Source: Nitrospirota bacterium
GTDB taxonomy: Bacteria; Nitrospirota; UBA9217
Reading direction: 5' to 3'
Assembly (NCBI GenBank): GCA_963737155.1
Contig: CAVTRN010000002.1
Coordinates: forward strand, 224,001 to 288,000
DNA: 64,000 nucleotides
Part shown: positions 2,092 to 29,475 of the stretch, in pieces
How the letters are laid out: every line of letters begins with the position of its first letter
How positions within the stretch are numbered: position 1 is the stretch's first letter
Notes under the pieces: generated by a model
Told to the model about the DNA's origin: nothing
What the model saw: only the letters and a program-made list of their open reading frames with translations
Databases searched by the model: none
Program-made: the position numbers and the translations under genes

Positions 2092-2238
2092 TCTGCTAAT
2101 TCGACAGTTGAATAAAAACTCCAAACGGAATTATTCATTTTCTTTGTGATCCTGGTTCTCCGAACCTACAACAGTGCAATGTCAATTTGGTGACGCAGGC
2201 GATTAATACAGATGAAACCTGTAGTGGGTAATTAACTA

Positions 2239-3862
2239 GAGTCTGTATTTTAATGCAAAAAACGCATTGCGCGAGTGCGACCGAGGACGCCGTAAGATGT
2301 GGTAATTCCCCCGCATTCGCGTTTATAGCCTCGCCGTTTGAGGTAGTTTCGTAATAACATAGCCATAATGCTAATTTTGAACGCACTGGTGCTATAAGGG
2401 TTGATTGATGATTGAGTTTTCGTTACTGTCGGGCCGTTTGAATCTTGGTGATCAGCAGTCCAGTCATAACCCGAATATTATACGCAATTGCACTCCAGTA
2501 AATTTTCGCGTTGAAGTGTGGTCGTGTCTTCCATTCGCAGCGAAACATATCGAACCCTCTTTTGAAATTCGATATGACAGCCTCGATGCCGCTCCGCCAC
2601 TTCTTAAGACGCGTTTCCAGGTTCAGGCTGCTCGTCAAATTCTTGAGCGATCCAACGATCTTGTTGAATACGATATTGACGACCCCTTTATTTTTCGCCA
2701 GTTGCTGGTTCAAGAGAGACGCATAGCCGCCGTCCGTCGTCATATCGCGCGGCACGATGCCATAGTTTTCCTTGATTCGATCAATCACGCTGCCGTATTC
2801 CTGAGTGTCGCTGGGGTTGCCATCAAGAATCTTGCAGTCGATAATCAGCATGCTCGCACCTGTCGCCAGATTGATCTTATGCCCGAACGTCGCTTCACGT
2901 TTGCCTTTTACGATGATATCGGTATGATCCTCAAAGATCGAAAACAGCTTGTCCTCGTTCGGCACTTTCTCTCCCAGGATCTCGTGGCGATGCGTCATGC
3001 TGTAAACCCTCTCCGCCTTCGGGAGAAGATTCTTGATTTCAGTCGCAAGAGCCAAAGCCGCATCGTCTGCGTACCGAAGCGAAGGCAACACAACAAGCGC
3101 GGCCTCAGCCTGATTAATGCTGGTTCGAAGCAATTTCGACTGTTTTTCAAAGGTTTCTTTGCGCTTCTCGCCCGGCTTCGTGTTGTTGATCTTGCCGAAA
3201 TGCTTCTTGGCCTGCTTCTTGTACCGCCGCCCCGTGATCACTCCACCGGTCTCTTCAGCGAGTTTTACGAGCAGCCGGTCAAAGGTCTTGATGCAGTCCC
3301 ACATCAGCGAATTGTTCGTCGGATAATGGACGTTTGTCTCGATTGCCGTGGAATCGGTTCGCGCCTTGCTGAAATCATCAAGTCCTTCCGCTTGGGCAAT
3401 CTTGTTGATTGCGATCATCACTTGCTCAAGCGTTTCCGCTTTGATCATCGAGATGTACTTCTGCCAGACCGAGAAGGATATGGGGGACCTGCCGTTAAGT
3501 TTGAGAAACAGCACGCAGATGCGAGAATCGTGTTGGGCGTACTCCAACTCCCGATATGTCAGCGTCTTCATCTCCTTATACAACGCGCCGCGCAGAATTT
3601 GCTCGATTGTGGGGGTGTCCTTTCTGCTAAGACTTTTTCCCGTGCTGCCCTTGAAGTCCCGTTTGACAAGCTCGTAAATTTCGGGATGCAACGACAAAAT
3701 CGTGTCGATAACCGCGAATTCCGTGTTGACTGCCCAGTGCGGATTCTCAAGCGTGAGTGTCAATTCGTTCAAAAGCTTCATCGTTTCCCCCTTGCTGATT
3801 TTGTTACGCCACTATACTTTTATCGTGCAGAATCAGCAAGTTAAATGATTAAATACAGACTC
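2239..3862 (-). mobile_element. ISNCY-type (ISDol1-like) insertion sequence, 1624 bp
   Basis: Perfect 15-bp terminal IR GAGTCTGTATTTAAT (2239-2253 / 3848-3862); 6-bp target duplication TAACTA (2233-2238, 3863-3868). Confidence 0.9.
2423..3781 (-). CDS. DDE transposase (ISNCY/IS5-like), 452 aa
   Basis: RTDSTAIETNVHYPT, TDGGY, WRSGIEAVISNFKRGF motifs; bounded by IRs. Confidence 0.9.
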   Translation of the reverse strand: MKLLNELTLTLENPHWAVNTEFAVIDTILSLHPEIYELVKRDFKGSTGKSLSRKDTPTIEQILRGALYKEMKTLTYRELEYAQHDSRICVLFLKLNGRSPISFSVWQKYISMIKAETLEQVMIAINKIAQAEGLDDFSKARTDSTAIETNVHYPTNNSLMWDCIKTFDRLLVKLAEETGGVITGRRYKKQAKKHFGKINNTKPGEKRKETFEKQSKLLRTSINQAEAALVVLPSLRYADDAALALATEIKNLLPKAERVYSMTHRHEILGEKVPNEDKLFSIFEDHTDIIVKGKREATFGHKINLATGASMLIIDCKILDGNPSDTQEYGSVIDRIKENYGIVPRDMTTDGGYASLLNQQLAKNKGVVNIVFNKIVGSLKNLTSSLNLETRLKKWRSGIEAVISNFKRGFDMFRCEWKTRPHFNAKIYWSAIAYNIRVMTGLLITKIQTARQ

Positions 3863-4225
3863 TAACTAGTATTACTACATCGTATCCTGCTTATGGAAAG
3901 CTGGAAGGACAATTAACTAAAAACTACAAACGGAATTCTTCCTTATCCTGGCGATTATGGCTCTCCGAGCTACACCTCCCATGAAGAGGTTTGTCAAGTG
4001 CCGCCCTTGAATTTTATGTTAAATGCTACTATTGCAGTATGTTTTGTGTGAAACCGCATCAGTCTCGCCAAGTGGTCCGGTTATTTAATAAGGGAATCAG
4101 CCATCCTCTCATTCGAGCTCACCCTTCAGGTGTCTGACCTTATTGATGCTGATGGCACGCCCATTCTACAAGCTGATAACTTCAATCAAGCGAAACAATT
4201 ATCTGTTACCAGTCGAAACTTATAC

Positions 4226-4296
4226 CTAAAACGCTCAAGGTGAGCCACGCAGAGCCGCGTCAGCGGGTCGGCGTTGGCTCGACCGCATTGTTGGCC
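4226..4296 (-). other. Integron attC site
   Basis: Minus strand: R'' GGCCAAC, 5 nt, L'' GGT(C)GAGC ... L' GCTCACC, 6 nt, R' GTTTTAG; begins 6 nt after the stop codon. Confidence 0.85.
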
Positions 4297-4792
4297 ATTC
4301 GATTACACGATTTGCTTTCCGGCGTCCGGTCCCACGGACTGGTCGTAAACGGCTTCCACCGTGATTCGGACAACGTACTGGAGTGGCGGCAACTTCATCG
4401 GCGCTTTCTTTATTTCCTCTCTCATTTGTTCGAACAGCAATCCAGACTCCAGGATTTCTGCCGATCCTTTGATCTGGTAGCCTTTGTAAGTCGTCATGTC
4501 CGCGACAGTGACCGCGACTTTGGGATTTGCCCGGAGGTTTTCACGAGTCTTCCGTGAAAACAGATCGGCAAAAATGACATACTCGTCATCAATCACCCGA
4601 ACGGAGCCTTTGGGTGTCGTGTTGGGCATGCCATCGGATGCGGCTGTCGCCACCCACGCCATTTTGCCTTTCAGGAACTCCTGAACTTCTACTGGTATTC
4701 GTGCCATTTTTCTGTCCTTTCTTTGTGTTGTTTTTAGCTACTCGTTTCGGTTTTTCAGTAAATCTCTCGAAGGCATCCTTCTTACTGGCCAA
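4232..4792 (-). mobile_element. Single integron gene cassette (PNPOx-like gene + attC)
   Basis: 5' core GTTGGCC (4793-4787) is the exact complement of the attC R'' GGCCAAC. Confidence 0.8.
4303..4707 (-). CDS. Pyridoxamine 5'-phosphate oxidase-like FMN-binding protein
   Basis: WVATAASDGMPNTTPKGS, KTRENLRANPKVAV, GYQIKG. Confidence 0.85.
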   Translation of the reverse strand: MARIPVEVQEFLKGKMAWVATAASDGMPNTTPKGSVRVIDDEYVIFADLFSRKTRENLRANPKVAVTVADMTTYKGYQIKGSAEILESGLLFEQMREEIKKAPMKLPPLQYVVRITVEAVYDQSVGPDAGKQIV

Positions 4793-4875
4793 CAAGAGAT
4801 TGAGCCATTCTCCTCAATTGTTAAACTCAGATTTTGATTGGCAGCATAAATTATGGAAGCTGTGAGCAGAAGTGA

Positions 4876-4904
4876 AACTTATCAAGAAGTTAAATTTCGC
4901 TCAA
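4876..4904 (-). promoter_or_regulatory. Putative cassette promoter (Pc-like), copy 1
   Basis: TTGAGC-17 bp-TAAGTT with TGn extension; same arrangement at 26812-26840. Confidence 0.55.
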
Positions 4905-5329
4905 CATGTAAAAATTCATACTTGAGGAGTTTCGGCCAATTACGGCCAAACATGTACTTGAGAAAAGTATATAGAATTTTGTTTGAATGATCAATAATAA
5001 TCAACAGCCTGAACGAACCTGCCGCATGGGCAGATTCAAAATGGGATAGCAAATACGAAGTGAAAGATTGGATGTTGTCTAAGCAGTCTTGGGTGTGAAA
5101 TACAGGAAGTACTTGTTGCCAGGAGAATCATGTCATAATATCCATGATTCAAACAGAAGATTTCACCGTCCTAATAATTCTTAACCTCCCACATCCGCCT
5201 ACTGAGATAACAAATCACTCAATATCTGGTGCTATCTCAAAAGTGCTTCCCCGAAACTCTTGCTTTAGTAATGATATAATTGTGATCGATAAGGTATTTC
5301 ACCATTCTGGCACTTTTAAGGAGGGAACT

Positions 5330-5800
5330 ATGGGAGAAGTCATTCACACATCCCGCATAAGGATAGTTCGGGAAAAGGGGCCCACTCGCAAAGCTGTGAT
5401 CGAGGGATTTAACGAACCAATTTATTATGGCGTGCATGGCGGAATCAAGAAATTTTACAAAGTCGAACCCGAGGAAGAGCACGCAGCCACGCTCGACCAT
5501 ATTGTGGCTGCAACAGCAGGCTGAATGATGGGAACACTGGCCGCGGCGCTGGCCGGAAAGAAAATACGAACGTCCGAAGAGCTTTACTCGGCCGATGTTG
5601 AAGGAGACATTGAGAACGTAAATGGCATTCTGAAAATCACGAAGATTAGGGTAAAGTACTATCTCAAAGTACCGGCAGGGAAATCCGCTGAAGCAAGAGC
5701 GGCATTTTCCTCATACATAGTTGGATGTCCGGCGGCGCAAAGTGTCATCGGTTGTATAGATATCAGGGACGATCTTGCAATCGAAGAAATGAAAGAGTAA
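5330..5800 (+). CDS. OsmC-family protein, probable selenoprotein (UGA at 5522-5524)
   Basis: Two track ORFs are contiguous in one frame: LDHIVAATAG-UGA-MMGTL; UGA at the first redox Cys position, second Cys in GCPAAQS; RBS before ATG 5330. Confidence 0.85.
5537..5556 (+). promoter_or_regulatory. Putative bacterial SECIS hairpin
   Basis: CTGGCC-GC-GGC-GC-T-GGCCGG; G-starting apical loop 21 nt after the UGA. Confidence 0.55.
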
Positions 5801-6189
5801 ATGATGGATTGAGCCTTATTTCATTGCGAATGATAATGCCAACGATTTTAAAGGCCAACCTTGCGTCTTGCTCAATGCATAAGCGGTGAGGTTTGCGGGA
5901 AATAATCTCGCGTTTAACGCTCTGATCCAAAAGAGAAGGTTGTATGTAGCATCGGGGAAACCTGGTTTTGATAGTTATTTCCCGCAACCGCATATTCAGG
6001 AAATTGCAACATGCGTTGGTTACAGGATGTAAATTACATCGTTTCAAAAAACGTAAACTCATTTGCTTCAGGAAGTTAATGTTGAGAATAAACCTATCCC
6101 AAAATGCAATGGTTCAAAGTAAAGTTGTGATCCGTTCACATAGCGGCTGTCGGGTCCAACTTTCGCGCAATTATGACCTTCTATTACCT

Positions 6190-6772: not shown

Positions 6773-6875
6773 ATTCTACACGTCTTCAAAAATTATCTTT
6801 ATATCGTCACCATCTACAAGCTTGCAGAGTTGTTGACTGAAATTCAATGCACAATAACTACTTGAAAGGTATAAT
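6773..6875. repeat. Intergenic repeat family B, copy 1 (copy 2 at 27800-27902)
   Basis: Core CAAGCTTGCA-N4-TGTTGACT-N-AAATTCAATGCA, 30/35 identical (6817-6851 vs 27844-27878). Confidence 0.75.
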
Positions 6876-7145
6876 GTAAAGTTCTTGGCTATGTTGAGTT
6901 AGATTTGCGTTTGCCAAGCAAATATCTGTTTTCTTGTCCTATTATCCTCCTTTCATTCTGGATTACTTAACATAATAATTTCCAGTTGATCGCATTTAAA
7001 TCACCGGAGGAGAGCTACGTAAGAAAAGTCATCGCCGAATAAAACTGATTCTGTGAAACGTCATGAGGAGCAAGAGAGTTCTGCAATCATTCCCTTCGGG
7101 AATATATTAGAAAAGAGGGATACGCATCTGGTGGAATGGCAGAAA

Positions 7146-23975: not shown

Positions 23976-24607
23976 TCAGAGTGCTTTAAGATCCGGGGTC
24001 CCTTGAGGTAAAGGCTTATAAGGATGTACACGACACATATTGCCATCCCCAGCTACATGATGAGTGATATAGTATTGATTATAATTATTTAGCAACTGTA
24101 ATCTGCGCACAGACTGTTATCAGATAAGTTCAGTTTGCAGGGGCAGTTTTCGTCTATTAATTATTGAATAGGTTTAACCATGTACATAAAATATGTGCAT
24201 AGTAATGTTGCGTAATACCGAACTGGCTTATCTTTCTCAAATATATGCGAGATTCATGTCACTGTCAATGTCGGCCACCGGGAATTGTAACTGGTATCGA
24301 ATGGTTATATCGGACAGGACTTGTTTGTGTAGACGTTAACAGTTATGGGATATACATTGATGTGTTTCAAAGAAGAGTAACTTCATCAGATTCAGGATGT
24401 ACCTCGCGATACAGTTATAACCTGTATTCCCATCATGAACGCGCGGGTTCATGCGAAGCGGGTTGGAGTGGGAAGACTACTAGTTATTTGAGTAGGATCC
24501 AGGCTGCTATTCTTCCAAGCACGTTTTGCGGTTTGGCAAACAACGTGATACAATAGAAATACAATACGCAGGTGACCAACACGAACAGACATCAAAGGAG
24601 GTGCATC

Positions 24608-25045
24608 ATGGCAATACGTACCGCAGAAGCCCGATGGGAAGGAAATTTGAAGAAAGGCAAAGGCACCATAAAACTCGGGAGCGGTGTTTTTGTAGGAAAC
24701 TATTCTTTTGGCTCACGGTTCGAAAAAGTGCCGGGCACAAACCCCGAGGAACTGATCGGCGCTGCGCATGCGGGGTGCTTCAGCATGGCGCTTTCGATGA
24801 TCCTGGAGCTGGCAGGGTTCACGGCAGACAGTATCCAGACCACGGCACGGGTTTCCATCGACAAGGTGGGTGACGGCTTTAAAATTACCACTATCGAACT
24901 GGAAACTGAAGGTAGCGTTCCCGGTATCGATGAAAAAACGTTCAATGAAAAAGCTGAAGCTGCCAAGAAAGGATGCCCTGTGTCCATGGCCCTTGCGGGT
25001 GTCGAGATCACTTTGAAATCCAGGCTAGTGAAAAAGGCGGGATGA
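24608..25045 (+). CDS. osmC: Peroxiredoxin OsmC
   Basis: TNPEELIGAAHAGCFSMA, CPVS; RBS AGGAGG. Confidence 0.9.
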   Translation: MAIRTAEARWEGNLKKGKGTIKLGSGVFVGNYSFGSRFEKVPGTNPEELIGAAHAGCFSMALSMILELAGFTADSIQTTARVSIDKVGDGFKITTIELETEGSVPGIDEKTFNEKAEAAKKGCPVSMALAGVEITLKSRLVKKAG

Positions 25046-25855: not shown

Positions 25856-26076
25856 ATGATCATCGGGAAGGCTACGAATCCGTGGTATCCTTTGTTTCGA
25901 ATGCAGGCTGGAACTTTACGTGATTCAAAGAATGGAGACTCTAACTCATACAGAAAAACAGCGCTGCTCCAACTTTCAATCGGCATTAGTCAATCATATT
26001 CTAATCTACTTGATCCAGAGTCCACCTACGAGTTCGTATGATGATGATATGTATCGATTGCCGGTAGAAATTTACA

Positions 26077-26142
26077 CTGGAACGCGGGCGGCAAGCCGGC
26101 GCAGCGCACCAGAGCAAGATCGGCTCTACCGCCTTGTTGTGC
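26077..26142 (-). other. Integron attC site
   Basis: Minus strand: R'' GCACAAC, 5 nt, GGTAGAGCCG ... CGGCTTGCC, 6 nt, R' GTTCCAG. Confidence 0.7.
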
Positions 26143-26727
26143 GTCTTAATTTCTTAGGTTTTTTAGTTTATTTTAGTTTTTAACCTACTCGACCCCTCGA
26201 GTCAGCGAGAAGAAACTATAGCTTCATGTCTTTTTACTTTTGTGTACTTTCGCTCGAGTACCCGCAGGCGCTATCTTCTTCAATTTGGCACGATTGTAAT
26301 CAACAGCGGCACGGACGAGATTTTTTAAAGCACGCTCATTAATCTTATCGCCCACGAAAAAATCGATCGCTCGTCTCGCGTTGCCTTCGAGGCCCGCGTT
26401 GAAGAGCTTGTCAGGATCCGGGAGGCTCGCCCCGTGGGCAAAGGTAAGCTTCACCTTCTCTTTGTGGGCGTTGGCGACCGCGATTATTCCGTCGTGAGAC
26501 CACACTGGGCTTCCCATCCACTTCCATTCCTCGATTATCTCCCGGTCGGCCTCAAGGATGCTCTTGCGGATGCTGGCGAACGTTTTGCCACGCCAGTCTG
26601 TGAGTTCAGCGATCAGCTTGTCAATACGTTCCGATGGATTCATAGGATTCTTTATGCCTTCCTTTTCAGTTTTTTATTATCGAAGTAGCTTTCAGATTAT
26701 TCTTTTTCTTTGCCTTTGGGCAGCACA
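26083..26727 (-). mobile_element. Single integron gene cassette (DUF1801 gene + attC)
   Basis: 5' boundary GCACA-C (26723-26728) equals R'' GCACAAC with one base missing. Confidence 0.65.
26224..26643 (-). CDS. DUF1801 (YdhG-like) protein
   Basis: DWRG, EEWKW, FAHGASLPDPDKLFN, RRAID. Confidence 0.85.
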   Translation of the reverse strand: MNPSERIDKLIAELTDWRGKTFASIRKSILEADREIIEEWKWMGSPVWSHDGIIAVANAHKEKVKLTFAHGASLPDPDKLFNAGLEGNARRAIDFFVGDKINERALKNLVRAAVDYNRAKLKKIAPAGTRAKVHKSKKT

Positions 26728-26811
26728 ACAATTGATTGAGTAGTTTTCGGTATTATAGCAAAATTTGATTTCAGGGGGCACATGCATTATTACATGCTTA
26801 AAAAAATTTCA

Positions 26812-26840
26812 AATATAACAAACTGATGCAATTCGCTCAA
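26812..26840 (-). promoter_or_regulatory. Putative cassette promoter (Pc-like), copy 2
   Basis: TTGAGC-17 bp-TATATT with TGn extension. Confidence 0.6.
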
Positions 26841-26985
26841 CATTCAAATATTAATGCTTGAGGACTTTTCGGTCAAATCCTATGACACTTATCCGCCGTG
26901 CTGTTTTCGAGATGAAGTATGGATTATTGTGAAGAAGGCAACTCCAATGATACAGGAAGTCATATTGCCCTGCGGTTAATGGTAC

Positions 26986-27573
26986 TTAATTAAAGAACGG
27001 CAACTTAAAGATCAAGAGATACCCGTTCAGCATCAATAGCGTGCCGAGTGATGCGGAAACAAGTGCAAAATAAAATATCTGGCGAGAGGCAGCTAGTATC
27101 GAGATTGATGCCATGACAATGGATATCTGCAGCAAAACCTCGGCATAGTCGAAATAGGGGTCCTTGCTGAGGTACTTATCCCGCTCTGCCTCAAGATGTT
27201 TGGCCTCATCTTCTATTATTTTCTTCTCCTCACCATATCGCGCTTCTTCCGCGTGCATGTCTCTGAGCATTGCCTCATATCGCTTTTTTGCCTCCGGTTT
27301 CATTCCCGCGCCCCGCTCAAGAAGGTCCACTTCTATCCGTAGTCCGTTCGTTTTATAGAGATGTTCCCGCAGGACTTTTGATTGGTAAAAGGCCCACTGG
27401 TCCGAGGCCTGCTGTTGTGAAAGCAGCAGTTCTTTCATGGCATTGTTGCCGCCCAGCGAACTGATGGCGAGTAGCACTGCGAATATTGCCGTGGTCAATG
27501 CAACGTGTTTTGTAAACTTCTTTGCTTTGATTTCTTCGAGCTCTTCAAGATTGGGAAGTTCTACTTCAGCCAT
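26986..27573 (-). CDS. DUF4337 membrane protein
   Basis: ASDQWAFYQSK, LLQISIV. Confidence 0.8.
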   Translation of the reverse strand: MAEVELPNLEELEEIKAKKFTKHVALTTAIFAVLLAISSLGGNNAMKELLLSQQQASDQWAFYQSKVLREHLYKTNGLRIEVDLLERGAGMKPEAKKRYEAMLRDMHAEEARYGEEKKIIEDEAKHLEAERDKYLSKDPYFDYAEVLLQISIVMASISILAASRQIFYFALVSASLGTLLMLNGYLLIFKLPFFN

Positions 27574-27799: not shown

Positions 27800-27902
27800 A
27801 TTCTGCACCTGCAATATAATTATATGAAACTCGACTTCACCTGCAAGCTTGCATGCGTGTTGACTAAAATTCAATGCAAACTACTACGTGAGAAATGATA
27901 AT
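27800..27902. repeat. Intergenic repeat family B, copy 2
   Basis: Homologous to 6773-6875. Confidence 0.75.
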
Positions 27903-27915
27903 CCTATAAGGGGCA

Positions 27916-27974
27916 AATGAACGAGCGGCTGAAGCGCTGCTTTTGGCGTTTCGCCGTCGAACCGGTTGTTAGAA
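27916..27974 (-). other. Degenerate attC-like site
   Basis: TTCTAAC...GTTCATT, 59 bp, imperfect inner arms. Confidence 0.45.
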
Positions 27975-28309
27975 CTTTTATCGAGATTTCATTATTTTGG
28001 AAATCTCATGGAATGATCACGCAAGCCTTGTCACGCCCTCGAAAACACTGTGAACAGCTATTGACTGGTTTCGCCCTTTATCCCAACCTATTTTGGCTTG
28101 ATCGGCCCTCACTTGTTCTCACCGACATCTGAGAAGTTTGCACCTTCAGGCTTGCGGAGCCTTGTCGCCTGTTTATTCATAACAACTTACACAACTTATC
28201 AACGTTCCCCCAGGTCATAGCACAGATCGGACTGTCGTAAAAGCTCCGATAGGCTCCCCCAGCTTGGCAGCTCGCTCAAAACCTACTGCAGTGGCTAGAA
28301 ACTGCGGCA

Positions 28310-28807
28310 TCACTCACGTGAAAGAGCAGCCAGGATTTCGACCAAGTGGTCGATGTGAAACTGGATGTGGTGCTTGCCCAGCCCATTGATCATCCCATCA
28401 AGAGTTGGGTATTCGCCCAACGGAGAATCTTTCAGCTTCGGAATATGAGCTTTCCTTCCCAGTTGTTCATCGGTTAATTTCTCAGCGAAGTTGGCCACGC
28501 TTTGGTAATTCCTCTCGCACTCCGCGACAAGTTCGATGAGGCTCATGCGCGCCCGATTTTCGGTAAAGAACGGATTCCCGCTATCGAGATCTATCCTAGG
28601 GGTATCGCAGTCGACAAAGGCCCTGAGGATCGGCAGGTGTCCCACACCCTCGGGACCGCAAAGGTGGGAAAGAATCTGCTTGGGTGACCATCTGTCCTTC
28701 GGAGCGCGCAAGGCCAGATTCTCGTCCACTCCTCGGTATGCCTGTTTCAGAGCTTCTACTTTCTGCCGGACGTCTTGCGCCAACTGGTTCCCACGTGAAG
28801 TTGCCAT
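28310..28807 (-). CDS. DinB-family protein
   Basis: WSPKQILSHL, HHIQFHI. Confidence 0.8.
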   Translation of the reverse strand: MATSRGNQLAQDVRQKVEALKQAYRGVDENLALRAPKDRWSPKQILSHLCGPEGVGHLPILRAFVDCDTPRIDLDSGNPFFTENRARMSLIELVAECERNYQSVANFAEKLTDEQLGRKAHIPKLKDSPLGEYPTLDGMINGLGKHHIQFHIDHLVEILAALSRE

Positions 28808-28867
28808 GGTGTATCCTCCTTAGGCTCTGTTATTTCGAGGTACCTAACTAACTTTATCCAGAGCGAA

Positions 28868-29077
28868 GCAGAAGACCACGAGCGTCAGCTCGTGGATGAA
28901 TGCGTCCCTTTTGTTTCCCTCTCCCTTTCAGGGGGAGTTAGGCACTCATTTCATAATAAACTTGCTATTCCACGCAGCCTGCTGCGTGGTCACCTTATAG
29001 AGGGAAGGGCAAGAGAAACCGCAGGTTTCTCAGTTGAAAATCTTTCCTTTATACCCCGTCAGCTTGCTGCGGGGTAT
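28868..29077. repeat. Cluster of IS200/IS605-type terminal hairpins without a transposase
   Basis: CCACGAGC-gtca-GCTCGTGG (28876-28895); CCACGCAGC-ct-GCTGCGTGG (28970-28989); ATACCCCG(T)CAGC-tt-GCTGCGGGGTAT (29051-29077). Confidence 0.55.
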
Positions 29078-29475
29078 TGATTGCTTGCCGAGGATATTGT
29101 TTCCTGGGTGAACAGAGGATTAAGAAACTGACCCAGAAGATCAAATTAGAAGGGATTTCACCTCGCTTAGAAGTGGAGCGAAAAAACCACAAATGATTAT
29201 TGCAGCCCCAAGTGCTACCAGCATTATGTCACTCCTGTTAATAATTTTAATCATCCTGATGCGATAATCACTGTTTCAGGATGACACACACATGCAATGT
29301 TTCTTTCGAGGCCGGGCAGGATCTTCGCCTGCACCTCTTTCAAACCGCATCTTAACATTCAATTAAAGGCTTGGTAAGTTTCAAAAGATTTTGCACATTG
29401 CGCTTAAATTATCAGGCCAGTAGCCTGTGAAACTCTTAACAGCAATTTCAAGATGAGGAAATTTTATCATATATT

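What the first reader, a model, noticed from the sequence alone, without database searches (positions are those of the whole stretch)
4201..4941. Dispersed integrase-less single-cassette integron platforms (locus 1 of 2)
Seen: a complete cassette (GTTGGCC core, PNPOx-like gene, canonical attC) whose flanks on both sides are homologous to the flanks of an unrelated cassette at 26053-26878. Beyond attC: ATCTGTTACCAGTCGAAACTTATACCTAAAAC vs ATCGATTGCCGGTAGAAATTTACAC-TGGAAC (22/32). At the 5' junction: AACaagaGATTGAG vs A-CaattGATTGAG. About 103 bp further out, a 47-bp block is 38/47 identical. No intI lies in the window. Known: integrons normally have one attI/Pc beside intI, and lone attC sites are usually attributed to insertion at secondary GTT sites. 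Inference: a multicopy attI-plus-promoter landing pad, served in trans, that captures and expresses cassettes at scattered loci. This is my best candidate for an undescribed system.
Basis: partly seen in the sequence, partly recalled or inferred. Interest (0 to 1): 0.85.

Follow-up and report, generated by a model that had tools for sequence, protein, structure and literature searches.

The report
Orphan integron attI-promoter modules with cassettes
Two single gene cassettes in this soil Nitrospirota genome sit behind copies of a leftover integron docking site and promoter whose integrase gene is gone: a decayed, unusually multi-copy form of a known gene-capture system.

Summary
Window 4232-4794 (minus strand) is a true integron cassette: a PNPOx-like gene with a canonical attC, and a first heptamer complementary to its own R''. 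The cassette at 26083-26728 (DUF1801) is equally real. Both lie behind a ~200-nt AT-rich "platform". This platform has 3 full copies and 1 partial copy in the genome, and occurs in 12 of 64 genomes of the family. In six independent loci, different cassettes are joined to it at the same G|TT.

The platform is not a new kind of site. A sequence model of it hits the intI-attI intergenic region of a complete integron in a related genus (G054), and the alignment runs up to the integrase start codon. A sister locus (G024:C4) keeps only the 5' stump of intI. The platforms are therefore orphaned attI/Pc modules of decayed integrons.

No intI was found in this assembly or in 5 other platform-bearing genomes, so "served in trans" is unsupported here. 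L2 and L3 lie directly behind another attC, like the known attC-ORF-ΔattI cassettes.

The shared 3' flank is real over its 32 nt. L2's flank weakly resembles a 29-copy repeat (X) that abuts attC sites, and that repeat remains unexplained.

Verdict: a new variant of a known kind (CALIN/SALIN that retains attI), of moderate interest.

The parts
4795..4990 (-). Locus 1 'platform': an orphan attI/Pc-like module. The crossover G is at 4795. This is the most diverged copy, and its proximal -10 element is degenerate.
   Evidence: nhmmer E 1.5e-42. The R2 model scores 56.6 bits. It aligns with the G054 intI-attI region. Its GC content is 0.34, against 0.49 for the window.
4232..4794 (-). Locus 1 cassette (563 nt). 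It starts TTGGCC and ends with the G of the attC R' box.
   Evidence: The start GTTGGCC is complementary to R'' GGCCAAC, 7 of 7. GC content is 0.52. The protein was found in 0 of the 63 other family genomes at E<=1e-20.
4303..4707 (-). PNPOx-like gene (134 aa) carried by the cassette.
   Evidence: Matches Pfam PF01243, E 9.8e-20.
4226..4296 (-). attC of the locus 1 cassette (R'' GGCCAAC ... R' GTTTTAG).
   Evidence: R1 covariance model scores 30.6 bits, E 5.7e-7. It shares the consensus structure of relatives' attCs.
4191..4231 (-). Locus 1 3' flank, shared with locus 2 over about 32 nt.
   Evidence: 0 of 5000 shuffles reach the observed score for the first 32 nt. It is not detected by the X-repeat profile.
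26729..26930 (-). Locus 2 platform. A TGCTATAAT extended -10 element begins 32 nt upstream of (5' to) the crossover G at 26729. The motif GGATAAGTGTCAT aligns on the intI start codon of G054.
   Evidence: nhmmer E 1.4e-47. R2 scores 83 bits. Alignment. The orthologues in G001 and G011 are 93% identical.
26083..26728 (-). Locus 2 cassette (DUF1801 gene at 26224-26643; attC at 26077-26142).
   Evidence: Pfam PF08818, E 2.2e-17. R1 scores 33.8 bits. The same cassette, with identical boundaries, lies between two attCs in G079:C25.
26020..26082 (-). Locus 2 3' flank, which weakly resembles the X repeat.
   Evidence: The X profile scores 5.2 bits, colinear over profile positions 2-81. The best of 1000 shuffles scores 2.6 bits.
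26986..27573 (-). DUF4337 gene lying between the X repeat and the locus 2 platform. It is absent from the G001 orthologue.
   Evidence: Pfam PF14235, E 1.1e-47. Comparison with G001.
27819..27924 (-). Copy of the X repeat. It starts at the G|TT of the attC that precedes it.
   Evidence: nhmmer E 2.1e-17.
27916..28852 (-). Third cassette in the window: a DinB_2-like gene (28310-28807) with its attC at 27916-27974. The 5' boundary at 28852 (G|TTAGTT) was read by eye.
   Evidence: R1 scores 23.2 bits, E 1.4e-4. Pfam DinB_2 match is below the curated cut-off (E 6e-4). Sequence read.
6790..6882 (-). Copy of the X repeat 1.8 kb upstream of the locus 1 platform. It is not preceded by an attC.
   Evidence: nhmmer E 2.8e-10 and E 1.9e-14.
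2233..3868 (-). IS element (DDE_Tnp_1 transposase at 2423-3781) downstream of locus 1. It is not part of the integron remnant.
   Evidence: 4 copies in the genome, counting this one; the 3 others are >=99.4% identical to it. Pfam PF01609.

Best explanation
Locus 1 is the remnant of an integron whose integrase gene has been lost. It keeps three things: the attI recombination site, the promoter region that lay between intI and attI (the 'platform', window 4795-4990), and one captured cassette (PNPOx-like gene plus attC, 4232-4794).

Shown:
- The cassette boundaries are true integrase crossover points (G|TT).
- The platform is homologous to the intI-proximal region of a complete integron in a related genus.
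- Paralogous platforms (L2, L3) exist in this genome, and further copies exist in relatives with other cassettes.

Inferred:
- The cassette was inserted by an integron integrase through attI x attC recombination at the platform's G|TT.
- The cassette is, or was, transcribed from the platform's promoter.
- The modules are now static, because the assembly holds no intI.
- The copies descend from an already truncated, intI-less module rather than from independent decay. L2 and L3 share the same short stretch beyond the former intI start codon.

L2 and L3 lie directly behind another cassette's attC. This is the arrangement known as an attC-ORF-ΔattI cassette. An attI-with-promoter module embedded in a small array would act as an internal promoter for the next cassette.
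For: (1) The cassettes are genuine.
- R''/start complementarity is 7 of 7 at both L1 and L2.
- Both attCs fit a covariance model built mainly from 13 attCs of relatives' complete integrons. That model has 16 pairs, 10 of them with compensatory changes.
- The DUF1801 cassette recurs in G079:C25 between two attCs. Its similarity to L2 begins exactly at G|TTGTGCTGCCC and ends at the attC G|TT.

(2) The platform acts as a fixed recombination point.
- The R2 model finds 20 places in 12 of 64 family genomes.
- These reduce to 16 distinct loci. Of these, 8 have an attC within 2.4 kb downstream, and 6 show R''/junction complementarity of 6-7 of 7 with six different cassettes.

(3) The platform is homologous to a real attI/Pc region.
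- R2, built without G054, hits G054:C74 at 38.4 bits (E 1e-10). The hit is directly beside an intI that scores 371.5 bits on TIGR02249 (cut-off 265), and two strong attCs follow it.
- The alignment runs from the crossover to the intI start codon.
- G024:C4 has the same core, a 7/7 cassette junction, and only a short intI 5' stump. tblastn finds no IntI there.

(4) No integrase is present.
- 0 of 9 tyrosine-recombinase matches in G000 pass TIGR02249.
- tblastn with two family IntI proteins gives only Xer-like hits of 22-27% identity and short fragments.
- The G054 IntI query gives 0 matches at E<=1e-40 in G000, G001, G010, G011, G015 and G079, although it finds 33 of 64 genomes overall.

(5) Integron decay is common in this family. 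Many IntI matches are fragments or carry stop codons.

(6) An attC lies upstream of the L2 and L3 modules. This fits the attC-ORF-ΔattI architecture described in PMC12901181 (abstract and section 5 read).
Against: - Only one complete integron (G054:C74) has a platform-like attI. The attI regions of 12 other intI loci are not hit by R2 (best E 0.23).
- The claimed intI start remnant in G000 is short: a GGATAnnnnnCAT motif plus about 51% identity over 41 nt, counted by eye. I did not test it statistically.
- L1 is the most diverged copy. It lacks the TATAAT element, and the promoter scan found no proximal promoter.
- There are no expression data. The laid contigs did not cover the platform.
- L3 and its orthologues lack an intact G|TT junction.
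- The G013 cassette's R'' does not match its junction (3 of 7).
- 8 of the 16 platform loci show no downstream attC. Three of those 8 (G002:C86, G015:C175, G053:C338) end at a contig edge.
- The assembly is in 2 contigs. Both contigs start within 4 kb of an attC-X pair, so an intI hidden in a gap cannot be excluded.
- The 29-copy X repeat abuts attCs and also sits upstream of the platforms. This reading does not explain it.
Confidence: 0.68

Rival explanations
1. One reading: the platforms are active, dispersed landing pads. An integrase encoded elsewhere (in trans, or transiently on a mobile element) loads and swaps cassettes at them.
For: - The platform is multi-copy, with different cassettes at the same G|TT.
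- Five platform-bearing genomes do carry IntI matches elsewhere (G002, G013, G014, G053, G054).
- Cassette content next to these modules differs between G000 and G001, whose flanking DNA is about 92-94% identical. G001 has an extra DUF1499 cassette + attC + X at the L2 locus, and the attCs upstream of L3 differ.
- The PNPOx cassette and the whole L1 locus are specific to G000 among those searched.
Against: - No intI was found in G000, G001, G010, G011, G015 or G079.
- The L2 cassette is the same in three species.
- The IntI proteins present in the same genus are at most 67% identical to the platform's cognate G054-type IntI across the aligned core (70% for one C-terminal fragment in G013). Their own attI regions are not platform-like.
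- No empty platform was found.
Confidence: 0.15
2. The cassettes inserted at secondary genomic sites (attG-type events). The target would be a repeated host promoter element unrelated to integrons, and the flank similarity would only reflect that repeat.
For: - Isolated cassettes (SALINs) are frequent, and IntI can insert cassettes at GWT sites near resident promoters (preprint 10.1101/2022.09.11.507474, passages read).
- This genome is full of short dispersed promoter-like repeats.
- The 3' flanks of many attCs here are the X repeat, which also occurs without any attC. By eye, 13 of 29 copies lack one.
Against: - The platform aligns with a true intI-attI region and sits beside intI in G054.
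- The junction position is identical in six loci. That is not expected for loose GWT targets.
Confidence: 0.07
3. An extension of the best reading, not exclusive with it. The intI-less attI/Pc module itself spreads as a ΔattI-type cassette: a unit bounded on the left by the G|TT after an attC and on the right by its own attI. An integrase moves it, and that is how it became multi-copy and came to lie inside small arrays.
For: - L2 and L3 are each preceded by attC-G|TT-X.
- In G001 the stretch from the X start to the platform junction is about 390 nt of non-coding DNA between two cassettes.
- L2 and L3 share the same stretch beyond the old intI start.
- attC-ORF-ΔattI units, one carrying 244 nt of attI2, are excised and inserted by IntI1 (PMC12901181, abstract and section 5).
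Against: - L1 has no clear attC upstream (best hit 13.6 bits, E 0.17).
- G001:C8b has X upstream of it but no detectable attC.
- The DNA linking X to the platform differs between copies.
- Between G000 and G001 at L3, the break in similarity lies about 100 nt downstream of X, not at a G|TT.
- Plain segmental duplication explains three copies equally well.
Confidence: 0.25

Closest known systems
CALIN / SALIN (clusters of attC sites, or single attC sites, lacking an integron integrase; IntegronFinder categories)
   Same: These are attC-bearing cassettes with no intI nearby or in the genome. G000 holds one 5-attC cluster and at least 9 further isolated or paired attC sites. Loss of the integrase is one proposed origin for such elements (passage in 10.1101/2022.09.11.507474).
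   Different: Here the attI/Pc region survives and can be recognised by homology to a complete integron. It also exists in several paralogous copies. The preprint states that about 95% of CALINs are not near recognisable intI pseudogenes, so retained platforms are not the usual picture.
Complete chromosomal integrons of the same family (for example G054:C74, and G014:C13, G002:C77)
   Same: They share the attC type (~58-70 nt, GGGTC-GAG...CTC-ACCC stems), the crossover at TTG|TTA, and an extended -10 element 31-32 nt upstream of the crossover.
   Different: The window loci have no intI, and each platform carries a single cassette. The platform sequence matches only the G054 type. It does not match the attI regions of its own genus's integrons.
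Unusual ΔattI-type gene cassettes of class 1 and class 2 mobile integrons (attC-ORF-ΔattI; PMC12901181)
   Same: An attI-derived site stands in the place of an attC inside an array, preceded by another cassette's attC and followed by a canonical cassette. Locus 2 reads attC(DinB) - X - DUF4337 - platform | DUF1801 cassette.
   Different: This is a chromosomal, environmental Nitrospirota setting. The attI part is about 200 nt long and includes the promoter and the former intI start, whereas most described cases are 14-18 nt. No integrase is present, and function is untested.
attG secondary-site cassette insertions (10.1101/2022.09.11.507474)
   Same: Isolated cassettes lie outside a complete integron, next to a promoter that could express them.
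   Different: attG sites are loose GWT targets with little shared sequence. Here the target is a conserved ~200-nt module homologous to an attI region.

Membership tests
Integron (complete) | An integron integrase gene (intI, with the IntI-specific additional domain) adjacent to attI. | tested here: not met
   TIGR02249 search of the genome gives 0 of 9 matches over the cut-off, best 88.7 bits. tblastn with two family IntI proteins finds nothing in the window or the platform loci, apart from G054.
Integron (complete) | An attI site with a promoter, at which cassettes are joined at G|TT. | tested here: met
   The match is by homology and by junction position. R2 hits the intI-adjacent region of G054 and aligns with it. 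Six loci have different cassettes at the same G|TT. Recombination activity itself cannot be tested with these tools.
Integron cassette | A promoterless ORF followed by an attC with R''/L''/L'/R' boxes and extrahelical bases, with the cassette start complementary to R''. | tested here: met
   R1 scores 30.6 and 33.8 bits. Consensus structure. Complementarity is 7 of 7 in L1 and L2. The DUF1801 cassette has identical boundaries in G079.
SALIN / CALIN | One or more attC sites with no integron integrase nearby. | tested here: met
   IntegronFinder itself was not available, so a home-built covariance model was used in its place.
attG secondary-site insertion | A target site that lacks attI or attC features and shares only a GWT core. 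| tested here: not met
   The target is a conserved ~200-nt module homologous to an attI/Pc region.
ΔattI-type cassette (attC-ORF-ΔattI) | An upstream attC, an ORF, then an attI-derived 3' site, followed by the next cassette. | tested here: inconclusive
   L2 meets the architecture: attC 27916-27974, DUF4337 gene, platform, DUF1801 cassette. L3 meets it without an ORF. For L1 the only upstream attC candidate is weak (5912-5945, 13.6 bits, E 0.17). Mobility was not tested.

The most novel reading that the evidence does not exclude
The orphan attI/Pc modules and the X repeat may together form a dispersed cassette-docking network. In this reading, the platform's 3' edge and X's 5' edge are preferred crossover points. 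An integrase that visits only transiently (on a mobile integron or from a neighbour) uses them. The intI-less attI-with-promoter modules themselves travel as cassettes, seeding internal promoters and new docking sites across about 350 kb of chromosome. That would be an integron organised as many small, integrase-free outposts rather than one platform with one array.
Probability: 0.18. Interest if true: 0.8.

Novelty: new variant of a known kind. Interest (0 to 1): 0.5.

Why it matters
The origin of cassette clusters and single cassettes that lack an integrase (CALINs and SALINs) is debated. They may be remnants of integrons, or they may be secondary-site insertions. attI sites are almost never recognisable outside the clinical integron classes, so the question is hard to test.

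Here the attI/promoter region can be identified by homology to a complete integron of the same family. That gives a clear case of the remnant route in an environmental phylum (Nitrospirota). It also shows that such a remnant can persist in several paralogous copies, each still placed to transcribe a captured cassette.

If the embedded copies behave as ΔattI-type cassettes, they would be internal promoters inside arrays. That would offer one answer to how distal cassettes get expressed.

The X repeat abuts more than half of the attC sites in this genome. It is a concrete, testable candidate for a preferred non-attI docking sequence.

Tried and rejected
- Rfam, at gathering thresholds, over the whole window gave 0 matches. 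Neither the platform, X nor Y is a described RNA family.
- My own hairpin scanner for attC sites mostly returned terminators and other palindromes, so I dropped it in favour of a covariance model. It did turn up a ~76-nt palindromic repeat family.
- MFE of the 79 nt upstream of each X copy did not separate attC-preceded copies from background: 3 of 29 fell below the 5th percentile of 1000 random windows. The figure of 16 of 29 attC-like copies is therefore a count by eye from that output. Only 8 of those copies are backed by covariance-model hits.
- I searched for the left junctions of other single cassettes by R'' complementarity. The results were ambiguous and I drew no conclusion.
- I looked for an 'empty versus filled' pair at an X copy. 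The region around C2:212490 is scattered over several contigs in G001, G011 and G010 and is broken up by dozens of short repeats, so no clean comparison was possible.
- No orthologue of L1 was found in G001, G011, G010, G002 or G013. Only dispersed repeats matched.
- Sequencing runs and laid contigs of 2 DNA and 2 RNA runs: the organism is present at about 2-3x in two soil runs. Nothing covers 26708-27515 (the platform and the DUF4337 gene). There are no joints. The RNA contigs over the DUF1801 gene are about 90-95% alike and diverge at the ORF ends, so they come from other organisms. This gives no verdict on expression or on empty sites.
- The sigma-70 scan flagged the upstream TTGACC-N17-TAATAT of L2 but not the TGCTATAAT element, whose -35 is weak. 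It flagged nothing proximal in L1.
- The idea that the window lies in one giant degenerate array is rejected. Only 8 attC hits occur in 380 kb, although 7 of the 8 share one orientation.
- The idea that X is part of the canonical integrons is rejected. The X profile hits none of the six 20-kb canonical integron loci.
- The idea that X is an IS end is not supported. The genes and sequences after X differ in nearly all copies.
- Not searched: whether the X repeat or multi-copy orphan attI modules are already in print. I ran only two literature searches, so I make no claim of absence from the literature.
- Supplementary Table S1 of PMC12901181 was not opened, because supplements are closed. It may list longer ΔattI sites than the ones I quote.
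Full report
**What is at the coordinates.** The window is G000:C2:224001-288000, from a 4.84-Mb, 2-contig, 49% GC genome. Five collection records that match the platform core are titled Nitrospirota (or Nitrospirae) MAGs.

Everything in the finding lies on the minus strand. Read that way, locus 1 runs in this order:
- a ~200-nt AT-rich "platform" (4990-4795, GC 0.34);
- the crossover G at 4795, then TT at 4794-4793;
- a 563-nt cassette (4794-4232, GC 0.52) carrying a 134-aa PNPOx-like gene (PF01243, E 9.8e-20);
- an attC (4296-4226);
- a 41-nt flank (4231-4191).

Locus 2 is built the same way. Its platform is 26930-26729, its cassette is 26728-26083 with a DUF1801 gene, and its attC is 26142-26077.

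In both loci the first seven bases of the cassette are the exact complement of its own R'' box (GTTGGCC/GGCCAAC and GTTGTGC/GCACAAC). That is what a circular cassette opened at G|TT should show.

**The attC sites are real.** I took 13 attC sites from the arrays next to complete integrases in relatives and aligned them with the two window sites. The consensus fold has 16 pairs, 10 of them with compensatory changes. I built a covariance model from this alignment, R1.

With filters off, R1 finds three sites in the window with E below 0.001:
- L2, 33.8 bits;
- L1, 30.6 bits;
- a third at 27916-27974, 23.2 bits, which closes a DinB_2-like cassette.

L1 and L2 were 2 of the 15 training rows, so their own scores are partly circular. 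The third site, and the sites in relatives, were not in the model.

**The shared flanks are real.**
- 5' flank: L1 versus L2 is 82% identical over 45 nt. L1 versus a third copy (L3, G000:C2:82814-83010) is 87% over 46 nt. L2 versus L3 is 78% over 98 nt plus 78% over 45 nt.
- A profile of the three copies finds exactly four places in the genome. The fourth (C2:325692-325797) holds only the distal half.
- 3' flank: over the first 32 nt after the attC, the L1-L2 score is reached by 0 of 5000 shuffles. Over 45 nt it is reached by 123 of 5000, and over 72 nt by 913 of 5000.

**The platform is a fixed crossover point used by different cassettes.** A sequence-only model of the proximal ~109 nt (R2) finds 20 places in 12 of 64 genomes of the family (only 60 candidates per genome were scored, so these are lower bounds). 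Collapsing orthologues leaves 16 distinct loci.
- Eight have an attC within 2.4 kb downstream.
- In six, the bases after the platform's G are 6-7 of 7 complementary to the R'' of the first downstream attC. Each of these carries a different cassette: G000 L1, G000 L2, G001:C8b, G024:C4, G054:C74 and G079:C91.
- Against this: G013's first attC does not match its junction (3 of 7). L3 and its orthologues lack an intact G|TT. Eight loci show no attC, three of which (G002:C86, G015:C175, G053:C338) end at a contig edge.

The DUF1801 cassette gives an independent check. The protein is 91-96% identical in G011, G001, G041, G010, G014 and G079. In G079:C25 the gene lies between two attCs with no platform. 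Its similarity to L2 starts exactly at G|TTGTGCTGCCC and stops at the attC's G|TT. The unit behind the L2 platform is therefore a discrete, mobile cassette with the boundaries I state.

The PNPOx protein was found in 0 of 63 other family genomes at E<=1e-20. The L1 locus has no orthologue in five relatives.

**What the platform is.** Integron integrases are common in this family:
- 9 of 41 relatives pass the TIGR02249 cut-off;
- 33 of 64 genomes match a family IntI at E<=1e-40, and many of these matches are fragments or carry stop codons.

One R2 hit, G054:C74, lies directly beside an intI (tblastn; TIGR02249 371.5 bits against a cut-off of 265). Two strong attCs (70 and 56 bits) follow it. 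G054 was not used to build R2, so this is an independent detection (38.4 bits, E 1e-10).

Aligned with the platforms, the G054 intI-attI spacer matches from the crossover (…CAATTACTTG|TTA) through the TGATATAAT extended -10 element to the integrase start codon. There G054's GGATATCAGTCAT lies over GGATAAGTGTCAT in L2.

G024:C4 has the same core, a 7/7 cassette junction, and only a short 5' stump of the intI reading frame. tblastn finds no IntI there.

The more numerous integrons of the window's own genus have the same architecture: TTGACC-N17-TGCTACTGT, with the crossover CTTG|TTA 31 nt after the start of the extended -10. Their sequence, however, is not detected by R2 (best E 0.23 over 12 loci).

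I conclude that the platform is an orphaned attI/Pc module of a G054-type integron. The remnant of the intI start in G000 is short: a 13-nt motif plus about 51% identity over 41 nt by my count. I did not test it statistically.

**No integrase here.** G000 has 0 of 9 tyrosine-recombinase matches over the TIGR02249 cut-off. tblastn gives only Xer-like hits of 22-27% identity and a few fragments of about 50 aa. The G054 IntI query finds nothing at E<=1e-40 in G000, G001, G010, G011, G015 or G079, and only a 161-aa fragment in G024.

The assembly is rated 100% complete but is in two contigs. Both contigs begin within 4 kb of an attC, so a gap could hide a gene.

The L2 module with its cassette is shared by G000, G001 and G011 at 93-94% identity. 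This fits a fossil rather than a site in active use.

**How the modules sit in the genome.** L2 and L3 are each preceded by another cassette's attC:
- window 27974-27916 for L2;
- C2:83225-83166 for L3.

In G001 the L2 orthologue reads attC, then about 390 nt of non-coding DNA ending in the platform, then the DUF1801 cassette. G000 has a DUF4337 gene inserted in that stretch.

This is the attC-ORF-ΔattI layout described for unusual cassettes of class 1 and 2 integrons, which IntI1 can excise and insert (PMC12901181, abstract and section 5).

L2 and L3 share about 45 nt beyond the former intI start and then diverge. This suggests they descend from an already truncated module. Other copies lose similarity nearer the start codon, so a single common boundary is not shown.

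**The 3' flank and repeat X.** Several attCs in G000 are followed at the G|TT by a conserved ~75-100-nt sequence that I call X. A profile finds 28 copies at E<1e-4, and a rebuilt profile finds 29.
- Eight copies are directly preceded by a model-detected attC. By eye, 16 of 29 are preceded by an attC-like hairpin that ends at X's first bases.
- X also lies upstream of the platforms: about 90-130 nt upstream at L3, at the G001 L2 orthologue and at G001:C8b; about 0.9 kb upstream at G000 L2; and 1.8 kb upstream at L1.
- It is followed by unrelated genes, often through a TTGTAG-N16-17-TATAAT promoter-like stretch.
- It is absent from six canonical integron loci.
- A single-copy BLAST finds it in 7 of 64 genomes. 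That search is insensitive: it recovers only 3 of the 29 copies in G000.
- L2's 3' flank matches the X profile colinearly but weakly: 5.2 bits, against a best of 2.6 bits in 1000 shuffles. L1's flank is not detected.

A DUF1499 cassette + attC + X block that sits at C1:236262-236954 in G000 is found at the L2 locus in G001 (91.7% identity), with the switch in similarity lying inside X. X may therefore also serve as portable homology for rearrangement. I cannot say what X is.

**Comparison with what is known.** By definition these loci are SALIN/CALIN elements. The preprint on attG sites notes that CALINs are thought to arise by integrase loss, yet about 95% are not near recognisable intI pseudogenes. 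It proposes secondary-site insertion as an alternative (10.1101/2022.09.11.507474, passages).

The present loci are a documented case of the remnant route. They differ from the usual picture in three ways:
- the attI/Pc region is retained;
- it is present in several copies;
- at least two copies are embedded behind attC sites.

**Verdict.** This is an integrase-less attI-plus-promoter module, multi-copy, holding different cassettes. But it is a decayed integron platform rather than a new system, and trans-servicing is unsupported in this genome. Novelty: a new variant of a known kind. Interest: 0.5. The unexplained link between attC sites and repeat X is the part most worth further work.

Noticed in passing
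window 5144-5800 (+): An OsmC-like reading frame is interrupted by one in-frame TGA at 5522-5524. Compared by eye with the intact OsmC paralogue at 24572-25045 (…AAHAGCFSMAL…), the TGA falls where that paralogue has its Cys (…AATAG*MMGTL…). It could be a selenocysteine codon or a pseudogene. I did not look for a SECIS element or for sel genes.
   Followed up: no
window 27819-27924 and 6790-6882; about 29 copies genome-wide (e.g. G000:C1:22466-22560): Repeat X is a ~75-100-nt dispersed element. Its first bases coincide with the G|TT after attC sites in 16 of 29 copies (by eye). Copies are concentrated in C2:1-330 kb (minus strand) and C1:1-25 kb (plus strand).
   Followed up: partly
window 3903-4190: Repeat Y is a ~230-290-nt element directly after the L1 3' flank. 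There are 3 copies in G000 (also C2:145102-145328 at 93% and C1:981461-981708 at 73%), and copies at about 75-82% identity in G001, G010 and G011. It has no Rfam match.
   Followed up: partly
G000:C2:1683101-1692007 (+): A cluster of 5 attC sites (35.7-42.3 bits) lies here with hypothetical genes and no integrase. This is a CALIN. X follows the 4th and 5th attC.
   Followed up: partly
window 2233-3868: An IS element with a DDE_Tnp_1 transposase. The genome holds 4 copies counting this one, the 3 others at >=99.4% identity; one lies near the start of contig C1.
   Followed up: partly
G001 L2 orthologue (L011, reverse-complement coordinates 1371-1471) and at least 25 places in G000: A ~100-nt promoter-like repeat (starting ...TATAAT...) often follows X and has dozens of copies. 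Together with other short repeats it breaks synteny between G000, G001 and G011 into a mosaic.
   Followed up: no
window 28900-29080 (-): Three tandemly spaced GC-rich hairpins of one type (stem ...CGCAGCAAGCTG...) lie just upstream of the DinB cassette start. The same hairpin type appears in G024 locus L016.
   Followed up: no
G000:C2:1375960-1376035, 1184334, 1800080, 1726155: A ~76-nt near-perfect palindromic repeat family (4 copies seen) turned up in my hairpin scan. It is not attC-like, because there is no unpaired spacer between the outer boxes.
   Followed up: no
G000:C2:325692-325797 (+): A partial platform copy holding only the distal half, including the stretch aligned on the old intI start. 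It is 96% identical to L2 over 77 nt and lies on the opposite strand to L1-L3, about 75 kb from L2.
   Followed up: no
G001, 11 places (e.g. C1:620010-620537): Eleven near-identical copies of a ~295-aa (one 281-aa) tyrosine recombinase reading frame (about 108-110 bits on TIGR02249, below the cut-off). This is presumably a multi-copy mobile element in the sister genome.
   Followed up: no
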